From NCBI GenBank assembly GCA_030141605.1, contig JAQGDQ010000780.1, positions 1 to 49,030 on the forward strand: DNA of 49,030 nt, read 5' to 3'. This document shows positions 9,371-44,514 of the stretch, one piece after another. A program made the translations under genes and the position numbers. A model generated the notes under the pieces. It searched no databases, was not told the origin of the DNA, and saw nothing but the letters and a program-made list of their open reading frames with translations. This stretch comes from Tubiluchus corallicola (Eukaryota > Animalia > Priapulida). The stretch's first letter is position 1. Each line of letters starts with the position of its first letter.

Positions 9371-9733
9371 ATAATGCTTGAAACTAATCTTTTACAAAAC
9401 ATGTAATTTCCAAAAAAAATCCTGCCTTACTTTTGACCAAGAACTACAACATATGCTTACGATACAATTGTAAATTTATACATGTCAACTTTGCTATTTA
9501 TAATTTGTAATAAATTACAATACCTACTACTCTCTAGCCTGGGGTTCAAAAACCACGCATACAAACAGCGTCAGGTAGCTTCAAAATAACCCTAATGTGA
9601 ATTCAATCATTCTTACTAATCTATTCTAGACGATACCATCTCTCCCCCTGGAGGAAAAAGAGAATTTTCTTACGATTTTCGCCTCTCATGAAAGTCTAAT
9701 AGAAAACGCATCGATCATTCAGACTCAAATGGT

Positions 9734-10586
9734 TTGAAGTTGCATTCAGCTCACAGCTGCAGGTTGAACATTTCTGGCTTGTAGTTGCATTCAGCTCAGA
9801 GCTGCAGGTTGAATATTTCTGAATTGAAGTTGCATTCAGCTCAGAGCTGCAGGTTGAACATTTCTGGCTTGAAGTTGCATTCAGCTCAGAGCTGCAGGTT
9901 CAACATTTCTGACTTGAAGTTGCATTCAGCTCACAGCTGCAGGTTGAACATTTCTGGCTTGAAGTTGCATTCAGCTCACAGCTGCAGGTTGAACATTTCT
10001 GGCTTGTAGTTGCATTCAGCTCAGAGCTGCAGGTTCAACATTTCTGACTAAAAGTTGCATTCAGCTCACAGCTGCAGGTTGAACATTTCTGGATTGAAGT
10101 TGCATTCAGCTCACAGCTGCAGGTTGAACATTTCTGAATTGAAGTTGCATTCAGCTAAGAGCTGCAGGTTGAACATTTCTGGCTTGAAGTTGCATTCAGC
10201 GCACAGCTGCAGGTTGAACATTTCTGGCTTGAAGTTGCATTCAGCTCACAGCTGCAGGTTGAACATTTCTGGATTGAAGTTGCATTCAGCTCACAGCTGC
10301 AGGTTGAACATTTCTGAATTGAAGTTGCATTCAGCTCACAGCTGCAGGTTGAACATTTCTGAATTGAAGTTGCATTCAGCTCAGAGCTGCAGGTTGAACA
10401 TTTCTGAATTGAAGTTGCATTCAGCTCAGAGCTGCAGGTTGAACATTTCTGAATTGAAGTTGCATTCAGCTCACAGCTGCAGGTTGAACATTTCTGAATT
10501 GAAGTTGCATTCAGCTCACAGCTGCAGGTTGAACATTTCTGGCTTGAAGTTGCATTCAGCTCACAGCTGCAGGTTCAACATTTCTA
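9734..10586. repeat. Minisatellite, 45 bp x about 19
   Basis: Unit ttgaagttgcattcagctcacagctgcaggttgaacatttctggc. Confidence 0.95.
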
Positions 10587-14060: not shown

Positions 14061-14162
14061 ACCTTTATAATAGCAGCCTTTACTAATGGTAAGCATCAGT
14101 CTACATTTACACTAATAAAACAAGTGAAATTGGTAACAAGAATTACAAAATCTGTTACTTAC

Positions 14163-15433
14163 CGCTTACTCTCATGCGAAACGCAGCCGTTACCGGAACA
14201 TTCGTATTCAAAGTCGCATTCAATTTCAAATCCCCCGTTGTTTCGTTCAGTATGAGCAAATGAGCGTTGTTTCCAGTCAGTATCTCGTACTTTAACTCGT
14301 CGTTCACGTCCGGATCCTTAGCAGGTATTCGACCAATCACACCGGTCGGGAAATGATTCTTAAAATTGTTAAAAATGATCTTAAAATCGTTGAACACGGG
14401 TCTGTTGTCGTTCACGTCCTGCACGATGATGTGAGTTATCGTATCCGTGAATAACGTCATCGACGACGCTCTCAGTATGATCTGAAACGCTTTCCTTTCC
14501 GACTCATAATCCAGCTCCGTGTCCGTTACGAGCTTCGTAGTTTCGCCGCCCCTCTGCACCAAGTGGAACAGATCTGCATCGGGACCGCCCACTATGTCGT
14601 AGCGGACGACCGCGTTCTCGCCTAGGTCGGGATCGTGGGCTATGATTTCGGAAACGGTCGAACCCACGGGAGAATTCTCCGCAATGTAAAACTTGAGCGG
14701 ATCCTCTGCAAACTGAGGCGGAGAGTCGTTCACATCATCCACGTTGACGGTGATCACGACGGACGCGGAAAGCGGCGGACTGCCGCGATCCCAGGCGTAC
14801 GCAACCAAATTATACTCGGCAACGTCCTCTCTATCCAGTTGTCTATCCGTCCGGATGATTCCAGACGTGGGATCGATGATGAACGCACCGTTGCCGTTGT
14901 CGCCATTAGTGAAGGTGTAACGGACACGCCCGTTGAGTCCGCTGTCAGCATCGTCGGCCGAGATGCTCACCACGCTCGTACCGATAATCGCATCTTCTGG
15001 AACGACAGCTAGGTACGACACCTGCTCAAATACGGGAGGGTTGTCGTTCACATCTGCCAGGATAATCTCGATGTCGGTCGTATCGGAAAGAGGCGGTTTA
15101 CCGTTGTCCTGAGCCGTTACGCTGATGGTGTAACTTTCCGTCTCCTCGCGGTCTAACTTCATCTTCGTCGTTATGGCGCCCGTTCCGGGGTTGATCTGGA
15201 ATTCGGGAAAGTCGTCCATGGTGTACGTTATTCTGGCATTCTCTCCGACATCTCCGTCCGTAGCGGAAACCGTAAGCACTGTGGAACCGACAGGGATGTC
15301 CTCAAAGACGTTAACGGAGTAAGAAGTCTGTTTAAACACCGGACGATAAGTATTGGCATCTAGAACCTCGATGTAAACTTTGGCACTGTCCAAACGACCG
15401 CCGGAATCCGTAGCCGTTACGGTCAACTCGTAC
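14163..15433 (-). CDS. CELSR: CELSR coding exon 3 (end of EC5 to EC9)
   Basis: ORF 14155..15453. CELSR-typical DANTYRP linker and atypical EC9 (F.IIFNNF...IGRIPAKDPDV.D.L.Y). Acceptor gttag|G, donor AGCG|gtaagt (phase 1). No further exon found in 1..14162. Confidence 0.93.
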
Positions 15434-15566
15434 CTAACCAACAGACAGTACAAACAATGTTGAAAGACTCAACAAAGGCTTAACGTTTAGAAGGTGACTT
15501 ATGAATCAACGTTAAAGCAACTGGTCTTGGTTGAAGCACTTAAAAAAGATTATCAATTAAAAAATA

Positions 15567-16506: not shown

Positions 16507-17136
16507 CTAAACACGTATTGTAATCATGTGTATAACATTTAACTAATTAACAGTTTCACTACGTAATTGCTTTTCAACAGGGATGCATTGGCTTTTGTAC
16601 ATTTCACAATAACTTCTTGTGGTGTGTTACTAAAACAGAATCTTGGAAATAAACAAACAGCGATTCATTATTAAACACCAATATTGAATATTAGTTTTAT
16701 TTAAACTCATGCGCACACATATATGCACTCATGCATGCACGCACACGCACACCCACACAAATAAGCACATTCTTATATTTAGAAGCCAATTTTCACAAAG
16801 TCATATTACTGATTCAAAATATGTCCAATATATAATCCACAAGCCACTAAACGCATCTTTCACCAACTATCAACAAGCAATTATGCAAGATCGAGAACGT
16901 ACTATACAGTACACTATTATGGAATGCACTTGGCTTGAGATGCTGATTGGCTAGTTAGCGTTACTTGTTGCCAAGCAACTTTTCTACAATGCATTTGCAT
17001 GGCCGTACCAGTGAAATAAACAGACCTGGGTCACTGCGCTTGGTGCTGCCACCTTCTGTCTCTTACAAGAAAAACAATAATTTGATCTCAAGGTCACTAC
17101 TTCATTAGACAATAAAAGACAGATGAACTTTCCTAC

Positions 17137-19278
17137 CTTAGGAAGAAAGACCGGATCGTTGTCATTAACGTCTCTGATATTGATGATGACACTTGCTGTA
17201 GCACTTCTTGGCGGAGTTCCCTGATCTGTTGCCACGACAACAAAATTGTATGTTTCGGCCTCCTCGCGATCCAGTAACCGAGTGGTCGTTATCGCGCCAT
17301 TGCCGGAATCGACTGCAAGCGGCATGTTGTCCGGTGCCCGGTCAATCTTGTACACCAGCTTGGAATTCGGACCGCCGTCCGAATCGAACGCTTGCACCCG
17401 GACGACCGAGTAGCCAACGGGAACGTCTTCTGACACGGATTCAGTGAACAGAGACGTGTAGAACCTCGGGTCATTGTCGTTGCGATCCTCAATCTCGATA
17501 AAGACGACCGTTGAATTGGACCTTGCGGGTGATCCACTGTCTTGTGCTCTCACAATCAATCTGTAGCTCTTCACCGATTCATAATCAAGTTCGGACACCA
17601 CGCTAATGTCCCCCGACAACGTATCAATACTGAAATGACCCTGGGTATTGCCTCCTGTCAGAGAATAACGAATCTCCTTGTTCTTACCAGCATCAGCATC
17701 AGTTGCTCGTATCTTAGCAACAATCGGATTAGACAACCAGTCGATGTCTTCCGGTACGTCCACGTAATACTGTTTTTGCTTGAACTGGGGGTAATTATCA
17801 TTGTCGTCTAGTACGTCTATGGTCAGTGTCGTAGTTGAAGATTTCCGCTCGGCCACAGTGGCCTGGTCGCTTGCTTCGATCTTAAGGACATACTTGCTGA
17901 TCTTTTCTCTGTCAAGCTTACGTCTTGTGGTCACTACACCAGAACGAGGGTCAATGTGAAACGCTTCGTTCGGTCCACCAGGGTTCAGAATGCTGTACAC
18001 TATTTCCTTATTCATGCCAAGATCTTCATCAGTTGCGCGAACGGTCACTATGGTCGAACCAATGGAAGCACTTTCGCGAATTTCGTGGTGATATTCGGAG
18101 GACTCGAAGACGGGAGTGTGATCGTTCACGTCGTCGACGTTAACTTGCAACATGGTTGTTCCGGAGCGTTCCGGTTCTCCGTTATCCCGGGCTGTTATCC
18201 GGAAGTAGTGCATGTTCATGTCCTCTCTGTCTAGCCGCTTCGTCGTAACAACCTGCCCGGAGATCGGATCGATCGCAAACATGTTTTGGCTGCGTCCGTC
18301 CCGCACAGCAATCATGGAATAAGTTATAGCGTCATCATCGGGGTCGGTTGCACTGAGTGACGTAACAGAGTAGCCAGCGTCCATTTCTTCTGGAACGTTG
18401 ACCGAATAAAATGAACTAGGAAAAAATGGCTGCTTATTTCGTTCGGCCATTCGCCTTACTCTCCGAATCTGCGATACCCTAGGCGATGTCATCATCATCA
18501 TTTCAACGCCACTTTTCACTAATACATTGCCTAAGAAAGTTCGATCTCCCAATTCGCAGTTGTAAACCACCTGCAAGTCTAATGAAAGATTGCCCTCATT
18601 GCCTGAAAGATTGCCCTCATTGCTTGAAAGATTGCCCTCATTGCTTGAAAGATTGCCCGCATTGCTTGTTTCCGAACACAACTTTCGTTTTGTCACAATT
18701 AAAGCACCATAAATAATCTCAACTGAATCAGACAACGACCGAATCGTCTTAAGTCGACAGCCGTGCACGGTTTCTGGAAAATACGAGACAATATCGCTCA
18801 ACGATTCGCCTTTCGCAAAGCATTCTCTGTCACTACGAATCACAACACTTTGGTTACGTGTCACTGCTGTGTTCACTGTACAGTTTTCACCATTCACACT
18901 AATAAATAAAGGTATTCTTGTTAAAACACTACTAGTATCACGTTTTGATTCCAATGATCTACCTTCTATAACTACTAGAAACGGATTATGAGGCAATGCT
19001 AGACAATCAAGTCGTTCGGAAAGCCACACAACACCCGTACTTTCATTAACCTCAACGGACACTCTCTTCATTGTCTGAGGTAGCAAGCGATATTTCAATC
19101 CGTGGTTCAAATTTAACCTCATTAGCTCCGTTCCCGGCGATGCACCGCTATGAATATGAATATCATATCCGAACACCAAGCTATCTGGCCACACCATCAA
19201 AAGTAACCATGCAAATGAAGTTAGCATGGCACTCGGTAGAGAAATCGTGGGAAAGCTGGGTAAATGCCAACAACCCAT
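17137..19278 (-). CDS. CELSR: Flamingo/Starry night/CELSR first coding exon: signal peptide, pro-region, furin site RRVRR, cadherin repeats EC1-EC4
   Basis: ORF 16984..19329 has repeated cadherin motifs (LDRE, A.D.D, DxNDN.P). Acceptor ttttttgtag precedes exon start 19347. In-frame ATGs at 19278 and 19227 (gccATG, then hydrophobic MLTSFAWLLLMVW). Donor AAG|gtagga after 17137 (phase 0). Confidence 0.93.
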
Positions 19279-19560
19279 TTCCAATAAATTCGGTAGTTTC
19301 TTACACAAGTTTGTATGATGCTTGTACACTTGTACAACCGAACGTTTCTACAAAAAAATGAAAGAAAGGTTAATTAGAAAACTAATTAGAAAGTTAATGA
19401 GCATTAGTTCAAACGTGAATTAGCATTTTCATTATTTTCACCTGTCAGTAAGAAAATTAATGATGACATAAAAAAATAGAAGTAAATACTATGAACTATG
19501 AATTTATTTTCACACATTAAAATACAATATCATACACATTAATAAACTTTAAATAAAATG

Positions 19561-27023: not shown

Positions 27024-27789
27024 TGTGAAATCAGCGCATAATCAAGCATTTGCAAAGCTGTGAAAGGCCTGCAGTACAGCGTGAAATCAGCGCATAGTCA
27101 AGCATTTGCAAAGCTGTGAAAGGTCTGCAGTACAGCATGAAATCAGCGCATAATCAAGCATTTGCAAAGCTGTGAAAGGCCTGCAGTACAGCATGAAATC
27201 AGCGCATAATCAAGCATTTGCAAAGCTGTGAAAGGCCTGCAGTACAGCATGAAATCAGCGCATAATCAAGCATTTGCAAAGCTGTGAAAGGTCTGCAGTA
27301 CAGCATGAAATCAGCGCATAATCAAGCATTTGCAAAGCTGTGAAAGGTCTGCAGTACAGCATGAAATCAGCGCATAATCAAGCATTTGCAAAGCTGTGAA
27401 AGGTCTGCCGTACAGCATGAAATCAGCGCATAATCAAGCATTTGCAAAGCTGTGAAAGGCCTGCAGTACAGCATGAAATCAGCGCATAATCAAGCATTTG
27501 CAAAGCTGTGAAAGGTCTGCAGTACAGTATGAAATCAGCGCATAATCAAGCATTTGCAAAGCTGTGAAAGGTCTGCAGTACAGTATGAAATCAGCGCATA
27601 ATCAAGCATTTGCAAAGCTGTGAAAGGTCTGCAGTACAGCATGAAATCAGCGCATAATCAAGCATTTGCAAAGCTGTGAAAGGTCTGCAGTACAGCATGA
27701 AATCAGCGCATAATCAAGCATTTGCAAAGCTGTGAAAGGTCTGCAGTACAGCGTGAAATCAGCGCATAATCAAGCATTTGCAAAACTGT
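27024..27789. repeat. Minisatellite, 56 bp x about 13.5
   Basis: Unit gtgaaaggtctgcagtacagcatgaaatcagcgcataatcaagcatttgcaaagct. Confidence 0.95.
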
Positions 27790-34468: not shown

Positions 34469-34968
34469 AGTTAAATGGGTTCCTGCTTCTGATCAGCATA
34501 GATTTTCGTATTTGATTGGCGCATTATTGATTTTTGCGCATTATTGATAAACTTTCAAGCAGTAGTGCTTTCATATTAGTTGTAATTATGCATGAAATCG
34601 TTTATAATTATTCCATATGTTTAAAAATACATTTAGACTAGTAAATCCGACTTGAAAATTGAAAACCCATTTATTGCTAACTTTTAATTAGACGGCTTTT
34701 TAAGAACAACATTTTTAGCACATTATGTACAAGAAATCCAGATTTTTTTCTCGTAACGATTTATTTTGCGATTTTTGCTAGTGGGAGTAAATTTGCAAGA
34801 TTAAACAGCATGCAGAAACTGTGGGAAACGTGTCGTTATAAAAATTTTACTATTTTGCGTCTGATGTTCTGCTGATTCGTGTGAAAAATTTGCAAATATT
34901 GAAATCACAGCTTCAGGAATAGATGTCATTTTTAAACTTACTGAATAACTACATTGTTCCATGTTAAG

Positions 34969-36329
34969 TCAGTGCACAGGAACACCGGCTCAGCTGGTCG
35001 GTGCATAGGAACACCGGCTCAGCTGGTCAGTGCATAGGAACACCGGCTCAGCCGGTCGGTGCATAGAAACACCGGCTCAGCCGGTCGGTGCATAGGAACA
35101 CCGGCTCAGCTGATCGGTGCATAGGAACACCGGCTCAGCTGGTCGGTGCATAGGAACACCGGCTCGGCTGGTCGGTGCATAGGAACACCGGCTCAGCTGG
35201 TCGGTGCATAGGAACACCGGCTCAGCTGATCGGTGCATAGGAACACCGGCTCAGCTGGTCAGTGCATAGGAACACCGGCTCAGCTGATCGGTGCATAGGA
35301 ACACCGGCTCAGCTGGTCAGTGCATAGGAACACCGGCTCAGCTGGTCAGTGCATAGAAACACCGGCTCAGCTGGTCAGTGCATAGGAACACCGGCTCAGC
35401 TGGTCGGTGCATAGGAACACCGGCTCAGCTGGTCGGTGCATAGGAACACCGGCTCAGCTGGTCAGTGCATAGGAACACCGGCTCAGCTGGTCGGTGCATA
35501 GGAACACCGGCTCAGCTGGTCGGTGCATAGGAACACCGGCTCAGCTGGTCAGTGCATAGGAACACCGGCTCAGCTGGTCAGTGCACAGAAACACCGGCTC
35601 AGCTGGTCAGTGCATAGGAAAACCGGCTCAGCTGGTCGGTGCATAGAAAAACCGGCTCAGCTGGTCGATGCATAGAAACACCGGCTCAGCCGGTCAGTGC
35701 ATAGGAACACCGGCTCAGCTGGTCGGTGCATAGGAACACCGGCTCAGCTGGTCAGTGCATAGAAAAACCGGCTCAGCTGGTCAGTGCATAGGAACACCGG
35801 CTCAGCTGGTCAGTGCATAGAAACACCGGCTCAGCTGGTCAGTGCATAGAAACACCGGCTCAGCTGGTCAGTGCATAGGAACGCCAGCTCAGCTGGTCAG
35901 TGCATAGGAACACCGGCTCAGCTGGTCAGTGCATAGGAACACCGGCTCAGCTGGTCAGTGCATAGGAACACCGGCTCAGCTGGTCAGTGCATAGGAACAC
36001 CGGCTCAGCTGGTCGGTGCATAGAAACACCGGCTCAGCTGGTCGGTGCATAGGAACACCGGCTCAGCTGGTCAGTGCATAGGAACACCGGCTCAGCTGGT
36101 CAGTGCATAGAAACACCGGCTCAGCTGGTCGGTGCATAGGAACACCGGCTCAGCTGGTCAGTGCATAGAAACACCGGCTCAGCTGGTCGGTGCATAGGAA
36201 CACCGGCTCAGCTGGTCGGTGCATAGGAAGACCGGCTCAGCTGGTCAGTGCATAGAAACACCAGCTCAGCTGGTCAGTGCATAGAAACACCGGCTCAGCT
36301 GGTCAGTGTATAGGAACACCGGCTCGGCT
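34969..36329. repeat. GC-rich minisatellite, 29 bp x about 46
   Basis: Unit ggaacaccggctcagctggtcRgtgcata. Confidence 0.96.
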
Positions 36330-41910: not shown

Positions 41911-42659
41911 CTAAGTAGAAAGTATCTACATAGAAAATAGCTAAGTAAAATTGCCTACATTAGTTTAAAGGAAGACCAGACGATTGTTTAGACTCAATCT
42001 CATTTTAATTAACTGTGCAAAATGTACATTTTCTTGCCTATAAAAGTTAACAATTGTTTCTTATATTTCAATAATTAGCTTAGAAAGTTAATTAACGGCA
42101 ACCGAACACAGCTATTGCTTACGTCAGAAACTAACCACAGTTTGTGCAATGACAGGCATCTTCCTTTGCGCGTACAAACGTACGTGTTACAGTACTGCTT
42201 AAACGCGTGATGTCACGAAAATGGGCTTTACATCACATGACATCATGAAACTAACACTGCAGTTCAAGCTCAAGGTTATCACGGTACCGCCTTCTATTTG
42301 TTGGCCACGCGAATGTGACAAAAAGGCGCCGCTGCCAATCTTACTAGATTCACTGAGCCGCGCGTAGCTTTGAAAGTTGAACGAAATTTGTGTATCCGAG
42401 GTAATTATTATTTAATCTAAGCTTTGATTTAAAATAAGCTACTGTAGTTTTCAATATTTTAGAGCATTCTTTATTCTGAACTCGTGTTTACACAATCATC
42501 CGGTTTTCCTTTAAGACTTGGATGCCACACATTACACTACATAAAAATGCTGACTTGTTAAAGGAACATATGACGATTTTTCACTTACTACCCCATTTTC
42601 AAGTCTGATAAAAGTATACATTTCAACACAATTAATACTGCACAATTGTTTCTGATAAT

Positions 42660-42735
42660 TAACCTAGCCACGGGGGGGGGGCAAGGCAGCCCAACTCAGT
42701 ACCGGTCCCAAGCCCGGATAAATAGGGAGGGTTAG
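42660..42735 (+). ncRNA. Twister ribozyme (type P1), copy A
   Basis: UAA-CCUA(P2)-GC-[P3]-CCGG-UCCCAAGC-CCGG(P4/L4)-AUAAA-UAGG(P2')-GAGGG matches the eukaryotic twister layout. Confidence 0.82.
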
Positions 42736-43132
42736 GGTCAGGAAGGGTATCCACCTGTAAAAACTGCGCCAAAACCTTCTATGAATGAGTCGGTGAGTGC
42801 AAAGAAGTGGTCAGACCCGCTCTAATCTACGGGCAGGAAGCAGCTTCTCTAAAGAAGATCGAAGAGAAGAAAATGGGTGTGGTAGAGATGAGGATGTTGA
42901 GATGGATGGTGGGAATAACAAGAAGAGATAAAATTAGAGATAATAAAATCAGAGGAACAGTAAAAGTAGTGGAAGCCTCGCAAGATTGCGATGGTATGGA
43001 CACCTGAAAAGAAGAGTCGGTGAAGATCATGTGGGAAGGGAAGACATAAATGAAGAGATGGTCAACAACAGGAATGCGTGGAGAAGACTCATTCACAACG
43101 GCGACCACGCATAGGGAAAAGCTGGGAAGAAG
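42661..43132 (+). mobile_element. Non-autonomous RTE-derived retroelement, copy A (twister head, RTE C-terminal remnant, (GAA)n tail)
   Basis: 17-bp TSD aattgtttctgataatt at 42644-42660 and 43133-43149. Peptide VRPALIYG.E...EMRMLRWMVGITRRDKIR is a typical RTE ORF C-terminus. Confidence 0.9.
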
Positions 43133-43321
43133 AATTGTTTCTGATAATTAAATAATAGATTAAAAACTTAATTAACGGCCGGGGAGCCCAATTATTGATG
43201 AAATCACAAACTATAGCATAATTCTCAAAAGCAAAAATATTCCAAGAGCATGTTTGCCGAAGCAAAACTAGACGAGTTGAGAAACTAGGACAATTGTGAT
43301 GTAACTTTGAGACTCACTGAA

Positions 43322-43481
43322 TTTCTGCAAGCGCACTGCGGGTTTCTGCAAGCGCACTGCGGGTTTCCGCAAGCGCACTGCGGCTTTCCGCAAGCGCACT
43401 GCGGCTTTCCGCAAGCGCACTGCGGCTTTCCGCAAGCGCACTGCGGCTTTCCGCAAGCGCACTGCGGCTTTCTGTAAGCGC
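43322..43481. repeat. Minisatellite, 21 bp x about 7.5
   Basis: Unit ttccgcaagcgcactgcggct. Confidence 0.95.
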
Positions 43482-43857
43482 ATGCTGTTTAAACTCATTC
43501 AAACTTCTGCAGCTTACCTAATGTTCGCGCAAAAACATCACAAAATTAGCTAATTTCTTTGTGAAAACTTATTATATTTCTGATGAAGATTAACAGTGCG
43601 CATTTTTTCTTCATCATGAATGACGTCATTGGAAGAAGAACGGCCATTGAAAATGGGAGCGCCGAAGCATGAAGTGATCGCGACTTTTAAAGTGATTTTA
43701 CCTAATTAAACAATGAGCTTATTGCAGTTTTATTACTAAATCCTTCTGACATTTTTTGCGAACATTGCAATAAGCTTGACTTTTCCTTTAACATTCAAAT
43801 GCTATCATCAACAGCTGTAAAGCCAATAGAAGACCCAAATGGATAATACAGTAAACT

Positions 43858-44353
43858 TCTTCTTCTTCTTCCCAGCTTTTCCCTATTCAGGGTCGCCGTT
43901 GTGAATGAGTCTTCTCCACGCATTCCTGTTGTTGACCATCTCTTCATTTATGTCTTCCCTTCCCACAAGATCTTCACCGACTCTTCTTTTCAGGTGTCCA
44001 TACCATCACAATCTTGCGAGGCTTCCACTACTTTTACTGTTCCTCTGATATTATTGTTTCTAATTTTATCTCGTCTTGTTATTCCCACCATCCATCTCAA
44101 CATCCTCATCTCCACCACACCCATTTTCTTCTCTTCGGTCTTCTTTAGAGAAGCTGCTTCCAGCCCATAGATTAGAGCGGGTCTGACCACTTCTTTGTGG
44201 ACTTTACCTTTAAGTCTCACTGACTCATTCATAGAAGGTTTTGGCGCAGTTTTTACAGGCGGATGCCCTTCCTGACCCTAACCCTCCCTATTTATCCGGG
44301 CTTGGTACCAGCACTGAGTAGGGCTGGCTTGCCCCCCCCCCAGTGGCTAGGTT
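43858..44353 (-). mobile_element. Non-autonomous RTE-derived retroelement, copy B
   Basis: TSD ggataatacagtaaact at 43841-43857 and 44354-44370. Near-identical to copy A; LKGKVHKEVVRPALIYG remnant; (GAA)n tail. Confidence 0.9.
44279..44353 (-). ncRNA. Twister ribozyme, copy B (degenerate)
   Basis: Same layout; P4 is CUGG/CCGG (wobble), L4 is UACCAAGC (C>A), and position -1 is C rather than U. Confidence 0.72.
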
Positions 44354-44514
44354 GGATAATACAGTAAACTAAAACTCTAAAAAACTCCGTTATTCCAAAC
44401 AAATTGATTCATTCTAGCCCCACCTGGAACCTCGAACGATTGCTGGCTCTTGTTTGGGGGAGGATGAAGACGGGGAGATAACTAAAAGTAATAATTACTA
44501 ATTAGTCAAGTTAC

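What the first reader, a model, noticed from the sequence alone, without database searches (positions are those of the whole stretch)
42644..44370. Twister-ribozyme-headed non-autonomous RTE mini-retroelement whose 5' end is the cleavage site in two independent insertions
Seen: two copies of about 470-500 bp with different TSDs, so they are separate insertions. Both begin AACCTAGCCAC. The first ~75 nt fit twister: P2 CCUA/UAGG, GC, P3 hairpin (poly-G with GCCC..CUCAG), P4 CCGG/CCGG, loop UCCCAAGC, then GAGGG. A short leader is fused to only the last ~70 codons of an RTE ORF and a (GAA)n tail. Known: twister cleaves U|AA in loop L1, and twisters occur at the 5' ends of RTE-clade elements in Schistosoma. 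Inference: this is a SINE-like family with no evident promoter that keeps only a ribozyme head and an RTE tail, is cut out of host read-through transcripts by self-cleavage, and is mobilised in trans. The shared start at the A just after the scissile bond would be the footprint of that processing.
Basis: partly seen in the sequence, partly recalled or inferred. Interest (0 to 1): 0.85.

Follow-up and report, generated by a model that had tools for sequence, protein, structure and literature searches.

The report
Twister-ribozyme-headed mini RTE retrotransposon family
These are two copies of an abundant, shortened jumping gene that keeps only the front and back ends of a longer RTE retrotransposon, and many of its relatives start exactly at the predicted cut site of a twister-type self-cutting RNA that likely frees it from host transcripts; both halves of this story are already published separately.

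Summary
Largely confirmed, but mostly known. Two 92%-identical copies (42661-43134 +, 44353-43858 -) each have their own 17-19 nt target-site duplication (TSD). Both heads match Rfam twister-P1 (E 7e-9 and 6e-8), below the gathering score because the P1 5' strand is missing and each copy has private mutations. The family's majority letters restore the conserved core, and all four P2 pairs co-vary across related heads. The two copies alone cannot fix the 5' end, because one or two of the leading A's overlap the TSD. Public contigs do: 32 of 99 and 9 of 53 partly matching contigs leave the element exactly at the first A of AAC, the twister cut site. The element is the parent's whole 5' UTR, joined at a 2-nt microhomology to about 113 codons in three pieces (not ~70), then (GAA)n. 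Short contig ends show the longer parent in the same species. Cleavage, transcription and trans-mobilisation are inferred. Twisters at RTE 5' ends, bipartite non-autonomous RTEs and ribozyme-headed R2 SIDEs are published. The scan noted the same arrangement seven times on other genomes. Host: an invertebrate animal, taxon unresolved.

The parts
42644..42662 (+). Copy 1 left TSD (17 nt, plus the last 2 A's shared with the element start)
   Evidence: Exact 19-nt duplicate at 43133-43151; empty-site contigs of the host repeat join across the insertion (table 5)
42661..42735 (+). Copy 1 twister-P1 ribozyme lacking its own P1 5' strand; predicted cut site between 42660 (U) and 42661 (A); P2 5' strand 42663-42666
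   Evidence: Rfam RF03160 47.2 bits, E 7.2e-9; private changes at 42686 and 42701 lie in P3
42736..42792 (+). Copy 1 rest of the RTE 5' UTR, parent start codon (42785-42787) and 2-nt microhomology deletion joint (42791-42792)
   Evidence: 84-88% identity to RTE 5' UTRs in L001-L006; joint mapped from copy 2
42793..43114 (+). Copy 1 RTE ORF C-terminal remnant in three pieces, with a private 16-nt deletion near 42798; stop codon 43112-43114
   Evidence: tblastn of P0007, 72% over residues 849-909 and a second gapped match 914-985; alignment
43115..43134 (+). Copy 1 short 3' UTR and (GAA)n tail
   Evidence: sequence
43133..43151 (+). Copy 1 right TSD
44353..44370 (-). Copy 2 5'-side TSD (17 nt, plus 1 A shared with the element start)
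   Evidence: Exact 18-nt duplicate at 43840-43857
44278..44353 (-). Copy 2 twister-P1 ribozyme; predicted cut site between 44354 (C) and 44353 (A); private changes at 44306 (CCC pseudoknot strand) and 44310 (P4)
   Evidence: RF03160 44 bits, E 6.2e-8; 99% of depth in run X1 carries the Rfam-type letter at both sites
44221..44277 (-). Copy 2 rest of the 5' UTR, parent start codon (44228-44226) and deletion joint (44222-44221)
   Evidence: Loose ends of parent-type contigs leave at 44221 and enter at 44222 (table 7)
43883..44220 (-). Copy 2 RTE ORF C-terminal remnant: 44223-44014 (residues 840-909 of P0007), 44017-43955 (914-934), 43954-43886 (about 965-987); stop codon 43885-43883
   Evidence: tblastn 74% identity on the first piece; 79% to decapod RTE proteins
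43858..43882 (-). Copy 2 3' UTR and (GAA)n tail
   Evidence: sequence
43840..43857 (-). Copy 2 3'-side TSD
42562..43787 (.). High-copy TTAA-flanked repeat with AGG...CCT ends (MITE-like) into which copy 1 inserted; not part of the element
   Evidence: TTAA at 42558-42561 and 43788-43791; many empty-site contigs

Best explanation
This is a high-copy, internally deleted derivative of an RTE-clade LINE that keeps the parent's whole 5' UTR, headed by a twister-type motif predicted to self-cleave, and it is likely cut out of host read-through RNA and copied into new sites by the parent's protein in trans. Shown: the anatomy, the two TSDs, the twister match, the majority-intact core, the pile-up of 5' junctions at the cut site, and parent-type contig ends on both sides of the deletion. 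Inferred steps: (1) a source copy is transcribed from an upstream host promoter; (2) the twister folds using host flank in place of its missing P1 5' strand and cuts at N|AA, removing the flank; (3) the parent's endonuclease and reverse transcriptase recognise the retained 3' end and prime on the (GAA)n tail; (4) the short RNA is copied to its very end, and the terminal AA pairs with an A or AA at the target, which explains the 1-2 nt overlap of TSD and start; (5) the new TSD becomes the flank for the next round. The family arose by one large deletion at a 2-nt microhomology just after the start codon, plus two smaller deletions, and then amplified from that deleted master.
For: Twister-P1 over the full model in both copies and in three related loci. 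At the core sites where a window copy departs from Rfam, 98.6-99.9% of X1 depth carries the other letter. P2: 4 of 4 pairs have changes on both sides across 7 heads, covariation score reached by 1 of 500 shuffles, slid controls lower; P1 only 50% paired, as expected for a strand donated by flank. 5' junctions: 32 of 99 partly laid contigs in X1 and 9 of 53 in X4 go loose exactly behind 44353 into unrelated sequence (agreement 0.43 and 0.48); no other listed place has more than 3. In a second organism (X5), 5 of the 8 listed pieces end at 44352-44354. Parent: two X4 contigs leave at 44221 into an open frame resembling RTE N-termini, and one enters at 44222 from sequence that reads as the RTE residues just upstream of the remnant (translated by hand, compared with P0001 and P0007). 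X1 depth stays at 7-9e5 across the joint, so deleted copies dominate. Autonomous RTEs L001 and L005 carry the same kind of head starting U|AAC, and L001 has a (GAA)n tail. No tRNA gene and no A or B box. Both TSDs begin with A, as reported for A-rich microsatellite tails of RTEs (PMC6007223, abstract and section 16). P1 defects and C at -1 are tolerated by natural twisters (PMC11662667, section 32; PMC8501958).
Against: No cleavage or expression data. Scores are below the Rfam gathering threshold. Nested folding does not favour the twister fold in either copy (z -1.8 to +0.4; P2 probability at most 0.02 with native flanks), though such folding cannot score pseudoknots; in copy 1 the flank can pair with the 3' side in a competing helix. 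Two thirds of partly laid contigs in X1 (67 of 99) leave elsewhere, and 196 loose-end rows were not shown. The parent is seen only as 30-nt ends of three contigs in one run, not as a full element. The covariation set is small (7 related sequences) and the structure was drawn from the Rfam model. Copy 2 carries a pseudoknot mismatch and is likely impaired.
Confidence: 0.8

Rival explanations
1. An internal RNA polymerase II promoter in the RTE 5' UTR starts transcription at or near AAC, and the twister is a secondary or redundant feature, as in the dual promoter-ribozyme head of trypanosome L1Tc/NARTc.
For: The whole parental 5' UTR is kept, including a block conserved across RTE heads downstream of the ribozyme. 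Bipartite LINEs are thought to be Pol II-transcribed (PMC5786205, discussion). A dual head is described for L1Tc (PMC3383444, search listing only).
Against: A start site that coincides to the base with the twister cut site, with only the P1 5' strand missing, would be a coincidence; P2 co-varies and both catalytic residues are kept across families. Perere-3 heads cleave at this site in vitro and in yeast (PMC8501958).
Confidence: 0.12
2. The ribozyme worked only in the autonomous parent; the mini-element inherited the cut end once and now spreads from a few masters that happen to sit at a host start site, so its ribozyme is a passenger.
For: All copies share the same three deletions, which points to very few masters. 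Both window copies have private changes in the ribozyme.
Against: Transcripts from upstream promoters would give shared or variable 5' extensions, but junction flanks are unrelated to each other and start at one base. The head shows 0 polymorphic sites in 130 nt against 11 in 335 nt of ORF remnant (Fisher p 0.04, counted), weakly suggesting selection on the head.
Confidence: 0.06
3. The copies are not a mobile family but decayed or assembly-collapsed RTE insertions, each deleted after insertion.
For: Sporadic internally deleted RTE copies exist (L003 joins a twister head to a different C-terminal point).
Against: Identical deletion points in two insertions with different TSDs; depth does not drop at the joint and only 1-2 contigs leave there.
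Confidence: 0.02

Closest known systems
Twister T-variant ribozymes at the 5' end of Perere-3 (RTE clade), Schistosoma mansoni; Liu et al. 2021, PMC8501958 (read: parts 1, 3, 4, 5 of 9, discussion, passages)
   Same: Twister-P1 at the extreme 5' end of an RTE; TSD directly next to the AA; TSD supplies the P1 5' strand; transcription from host promoters proposed.
   Different: Perere-3 is autonomous; the parts read do not describe a non-coding, internally deleted family. Here the element is about 0.49 kb with a G-rich P3 and a (GAA)n tail.
Bipartite non-autonomous RTE elements (RTE-N2_Lch, RTESINE1/2, WALLSI3, Bov-A); Kojima 2018, PMC5786205 (read: parts 1-4 of 5); Kojima 2020, PMC7245038 (passages)
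   Same: 5' end plus 3' end of an RTE joined by internal deletion, no small-RNA head; the paper notes that they usually keep the parent's 5' end and links this to self-cleaving ribozymes.
   Different: The ribozyme class is not identified as twister there; most examples keep UTRs only, whereas this one keeps about 113 codons of ORF in three pieces.
R2 SIDEs of Drosophila; Eickbush and Eickbush 2012, PMC3414825 (read: abstract, section 5)
   Same: About 0.5 kb non-autonomous element made of a 5' ribozyme and the parent's 3' end, processed from a host co-transcript and moved in trans.
   Different: HDV-like ribozyme, site-specific in 28S rDNA, cleavage shown; here twister, dispersed, cleavage untested.
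Truncated twisters at RTE 5' ends; de la Pena et al. 2020 review, PMC7761336 (passages)
   Same: States that truncated but active twisters are conserved at the 5' end of RTE-superfamily elements.
   Different: One sentence citing work in preparation; no non-autonomous family described in the passages seen.

Membership tests
Twister-P1 ribozyme (RF03160) | Covariance-model match at the curated gathering score | tested here: not met
   47.2 and 44 bits against 67.2; E-values are significant; L001 reaches 61.3
Twister-P1 ribozyme (RF03160) | P2, P4, both pseudoknots and catalytic A and G present | tested here: met
   Copy 1 intact; copy 2 has one pseudoknot mismatch; majority letters intact
Twister-P1 ribozyme (RF03160) | P1 helix | tested here: inconclusive
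   Native flanks give 2 of 4 and 1 of 4 pairs, as random flank would; P1 is reported dispensable (PMC11662667)
Twister-P1 ribozyme (RF03160) | Site-specific self-cleavage | not testable with these tools
   Needs an in vitro assay
RTE-clade non-LTR retrotransposon derivative | Coding remnant homologous to single-ORF endonuclease + reverse transcriptase proteins | tested here: met
   75% to 987-aa P0007, which has Exo_endo_phos and RVT_1 domains; the clade name RTE for these proteins is recalled from their motifs, no tree was built
RTE-clade non-LTR retrotransposon derivative | TSD and microsatellite 3' tail | tested here: met
Bipartite non-autonomous LINE | 5' and 3' parts of one parent joined by internal deletion | tested here: met
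   Parent-type contig ends at 44221 and 44222; evidence is 30 nt on each side
Bipartite non-autonomous LINE | Many copies with the same deleted structure | tested here: met
   9746 contigs laid on 641 nt in X1 (includes the host repeat); flat depth across the joint, about 6,400 times the unique flank as a crude, overlap-inflated ratio
Bipartite non-autonomous LINE | Intact autonomous partner in the same genome | tested here: inconclusive
   No genome held; only short parent-type ends seen
SINE (Pol III, small-RNA head) | tRNA, 7SL or 5S head with internal Pol III boxes | tested here: not met
   No tRNA, no A or B box, no such Rfam match
Retrozyme (hammerhead, circular RNA) | Hammerhead ribozymes in tandem or terminal repeats | tested here: not met
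   Single twister per copy, no hammerhead hit

The most novel reading that the evidence does not exclude
Because copying ends at the cut site and the terminal AA anneals to the target, nearly every new insertion is born with a working cleavage site. This young family would then have seeded hundreds to thousands of live twister ribozymes through one animal genome, cutting any host pre-mRNA that reads through them in sense, and it would be a natural minimal RNA template (ribozyme head plus tail) for RTE-driven gene insertion.
Probability: 0.3. Interest if true: 0.55.

Novelty: new variant of a known kind. Interest (0 to 1): 0.3.

Why it matters
If cleavage is confirmed, it extends the twister's one known biological role from an autonomous fluke element to promoter-less parasites of RTEs, giving the twister counterpart of R2 SIDEs and direct support for the proposal that ribozyme-headed LINE clades are the ones able to spawn bipartite derivatives. 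It also marks out the minimal ends an RTE protein needs, which bears on RTE-based gene-writing templates (PMC13708176, passages). It does not add a new principle.

Tried and rejected
No whole genome is held, so no genome-wide BLAST; public contigs were used instead. No RNA holder listed. X13 (RNA is a guess) has one contig matching only 35 nt of the twister core with different sequence on both sides, so it belongs to another twister-headed family and says nothing on expression of this one. P0007 found no related loci in viral or prokaryote contigs; the head pattern found nothing in viral contigs. Nested folding was uninformative for a double-pseudoknot RNA. A translated mini-protein from the 81-codon frame opened by the deletion in copy 2 was considered and rejected: of 8 polymorphic sites, 3 are silent, 4 change the residue and 1 makes a stop at 15% of depth, and copy 1 is frameshifted. 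The search with the neighbouring cadherin exon did not resolve the host taxon (best 63% identity). X4 shows far more depth on the 3' part than the head; contig depth cannot be read as expression and I left it. The two SNORD72/SNORA79 hits (E 4.6, 9.8) are chance. A look-up by sequence in earlier findings gave nothing.

Full report
Setting. The window is animal DNA of about 36% GC with two cadherin-repeat exons of a CELSR/Flamingo-like gene on the minus strand at 14.2-15.5 and 17.0-19.3 kb; the taxon was not resolved. No whole genome is held.

Observation. Two copies lie at 42661-43134 (+) and 44353-43858 (-), 91.9% identical, with no third copy in the window. Each is flanked by its own exact duplication, 19 nt and 18 nt. 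The longest duplication includes both leading A's in copy 1 and the first A in copy 2, so the pair alone does not prove where the element begins. Copy 1 sits inside a high-copy TTAA-flanked repeat (42562-43787), and many empty-site contigs of that repeat join across the insertion.

The head. Rfam finds nothing in the window at gathering scores. By E-value, twister-P1 matches both heads over the whole model, 47.2 and 44 bits against a cut-off of 67.2. The lost score comes from the P1 5' strand, which is flank, the long P3, and private changes. In run X1, 98.6-99.9% of depth carries the other letter at the five head sites where a window copy differs, and these letters restore P3, P4 and the CCC pseudoknot strand. 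Across seven heads (two window copies, L001, L002, L003, L005, L006) all four P2 pairs show changes on both sides; 1 of 500 shuffles reached the covariation score, and P1 was only 50% paired. The set is small and related, so this is support, not proof. L004, nearly the same as L006, was left out. Nested folding does not favour the twister fold but cannot score pseudoknots. Natural twisters tolerate P1 defects and any base at -1, but less so pseudoknot mismatches (PMC11662667, abstract and section 32 read), so copy 1 could cleave and copy 2 is likely impaired.

The 5' end in the population. Contigs were laid on 44120-44400. Of 99 partly fitting contigs in X1, 32 go loose directly behind 44353, the first A of AAC, into mutually unrelated sequence; in X4, a different sample, 9 of 53 do. 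No other listed place has more than 3 contigs in these runs; 196 rows were not shown. If the two A's were flank, about 8% of junctions would clip there. The consensus first loose letter corresponds to U at -1 in both runs; per-contig letters were not given. In X5, another organism, the head is abundant while the ORF part is almost absent at 80% identity, and 5 of 8 listed pieces end at 44352-44354.

The body. Against a 987-aa endonuclease + reverse transcriptase relative (P0007) the element keeps residues 840-909, 914-934 and about 965-987, about 113 codons in three pieces with both small deletions shared by the two copies. The closest named proteins are from decapod crustaceans at 75-79%. In X4, two contigs leave the element at 44221 into an open frame that resembles the N-termini of P0007 and P0009, and one enters at 44222 from sequence that reads as the residues just upstream of the remnant (table 7; translated by hand from 30 letters each). 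So the 5' part is the parent's entire 5' UTR plus its start codon, and the large deletion used a 2-nt microhomology. Depth in X1 stays at 7-9e5 across this joint against 119.5 on the unique flank; the ratio of about 6,400 is inflated by contig overlap and is not a copy number, but hundreds to thousands of copies, far outnumbering the parent, is a fair reading. There is no tRNA head and no Pol III box. The remnant shows no coding constraint.

Relatives. A head pattern found three metagenome contigs and three loci in prokaryote assemblies, probably animal contamination. L001, L002 and L005 are long RTE ORFs directly behind a twister head; L001 and L005 start U|AAC, and L001 has a (GAA)n tail. 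L003 joins a twister head to a different C-terminal point, an independent deletion.

Mechanism. Most likely (0.8): host read-through RNA is cut at N|AA by the twister, using flank in place of P1; the parent protein primes on the (GAA)n tail and copies the short RNA to its end; the terminal AA anneals to an A or AA at the target, which gives the 1-2 nt overlap. A precise junction with unrelated flanks needs a defined RNA 5' end in every generation, so either cleavage or an internal start site. An internal promoter (0.12) and a passenger ribozyme (0.06) are the rivals. Cleavage, transcription and trans-mobilisation were not shown; no RNA holder was listed.

Known context. Liu et al. 2021 (PMC8501958; parts 1, 3, 4, 5 of 9 and discussion read) show twisters at Perere-3 5' ends, TSDs next to the AA, and cleavage in vitro and in yeast. 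A 2020 review states the same for RTEs generally (PMC7761336, passages). Kojima 2018 (PMC5786205, parts 1-4 of 5) and 2020 (PMC7245038, passages) describe bipartite non-autonomous RTEs as common and tie their intact 5' ends to ribozymes. R2 SIDEs are the HDV-ribozyme equivalent with cleavage shown (PMC3414825, abstract and section 5). A review of ribozyme biology was seen as passages (PMC6765202). Six searches found no paper describing a twister-headed bipartite RTE family; the library lacks most subscription papers, Repbase was not available, and the supplements of the Liu and Kojima papers were not read. The scan's own notes list seven such findings on other genomes; I did not check them.

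Verdict. A real, well-preserved example of a predictable combination: new variant of a known kind, interest 0.3.

Noticed in passing
window 42562-43787 and 41969-42510: Two neighbouring TTAA-flanked repeats with AGG...CCT ends, very abundant in the runs; resemble Kolobok-type non-autonomous DNA transposons (name recalled, not tested). The second contains a 21-nt tandem array at 43322-43482.
   Followed up: partly
window 42661-43134 and 43858-44353: The two copies face each other 0.73 kb apart with arms 94-96% complementary; a transcript through both would form a long double-stranded hairpin.
   Followed up: no
window 14155-15468 and 16984-19347 (-): Two large exons of a CELSR/Flamingo-like cadherin gene, 23 kb or more from the elements.
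   Followed up: partly
L003 825-1332: An independent twister head joined to RTE sequence at about residue 750 of P0007, a second bipartite-like deletion in another organism; head partly decayed.
   Followed up: partly
L004, L005, L006: Twister-headed RTE sequence inside three bacterial assemblies, most likely animal DNA contamination.
   Followed up: no
window 44250-44330 in run X5: Another organism has a very abundant repeat sharing the twister head and 5' UTR block but not the ORF remnant; its body is unknown.
   Followed up: no
window 44280-44314 in run X13: A 421-nt contig with a twister core and different flanks, so a second twister-headed family under the same species label.
   Followed up: no
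window 34968-36329, 27025-27789, 9730-10585, 2124-2864: Long tandem minisatellite arrays.
   Followed up: no
window 44017-44220 (-): The closest named RTE proteins are from decapod crustaceans (75-79%), while the host cadherin is only 57-58% identical to decapod proteins; horizontal transfer is possible but untested.
   Followed up: no
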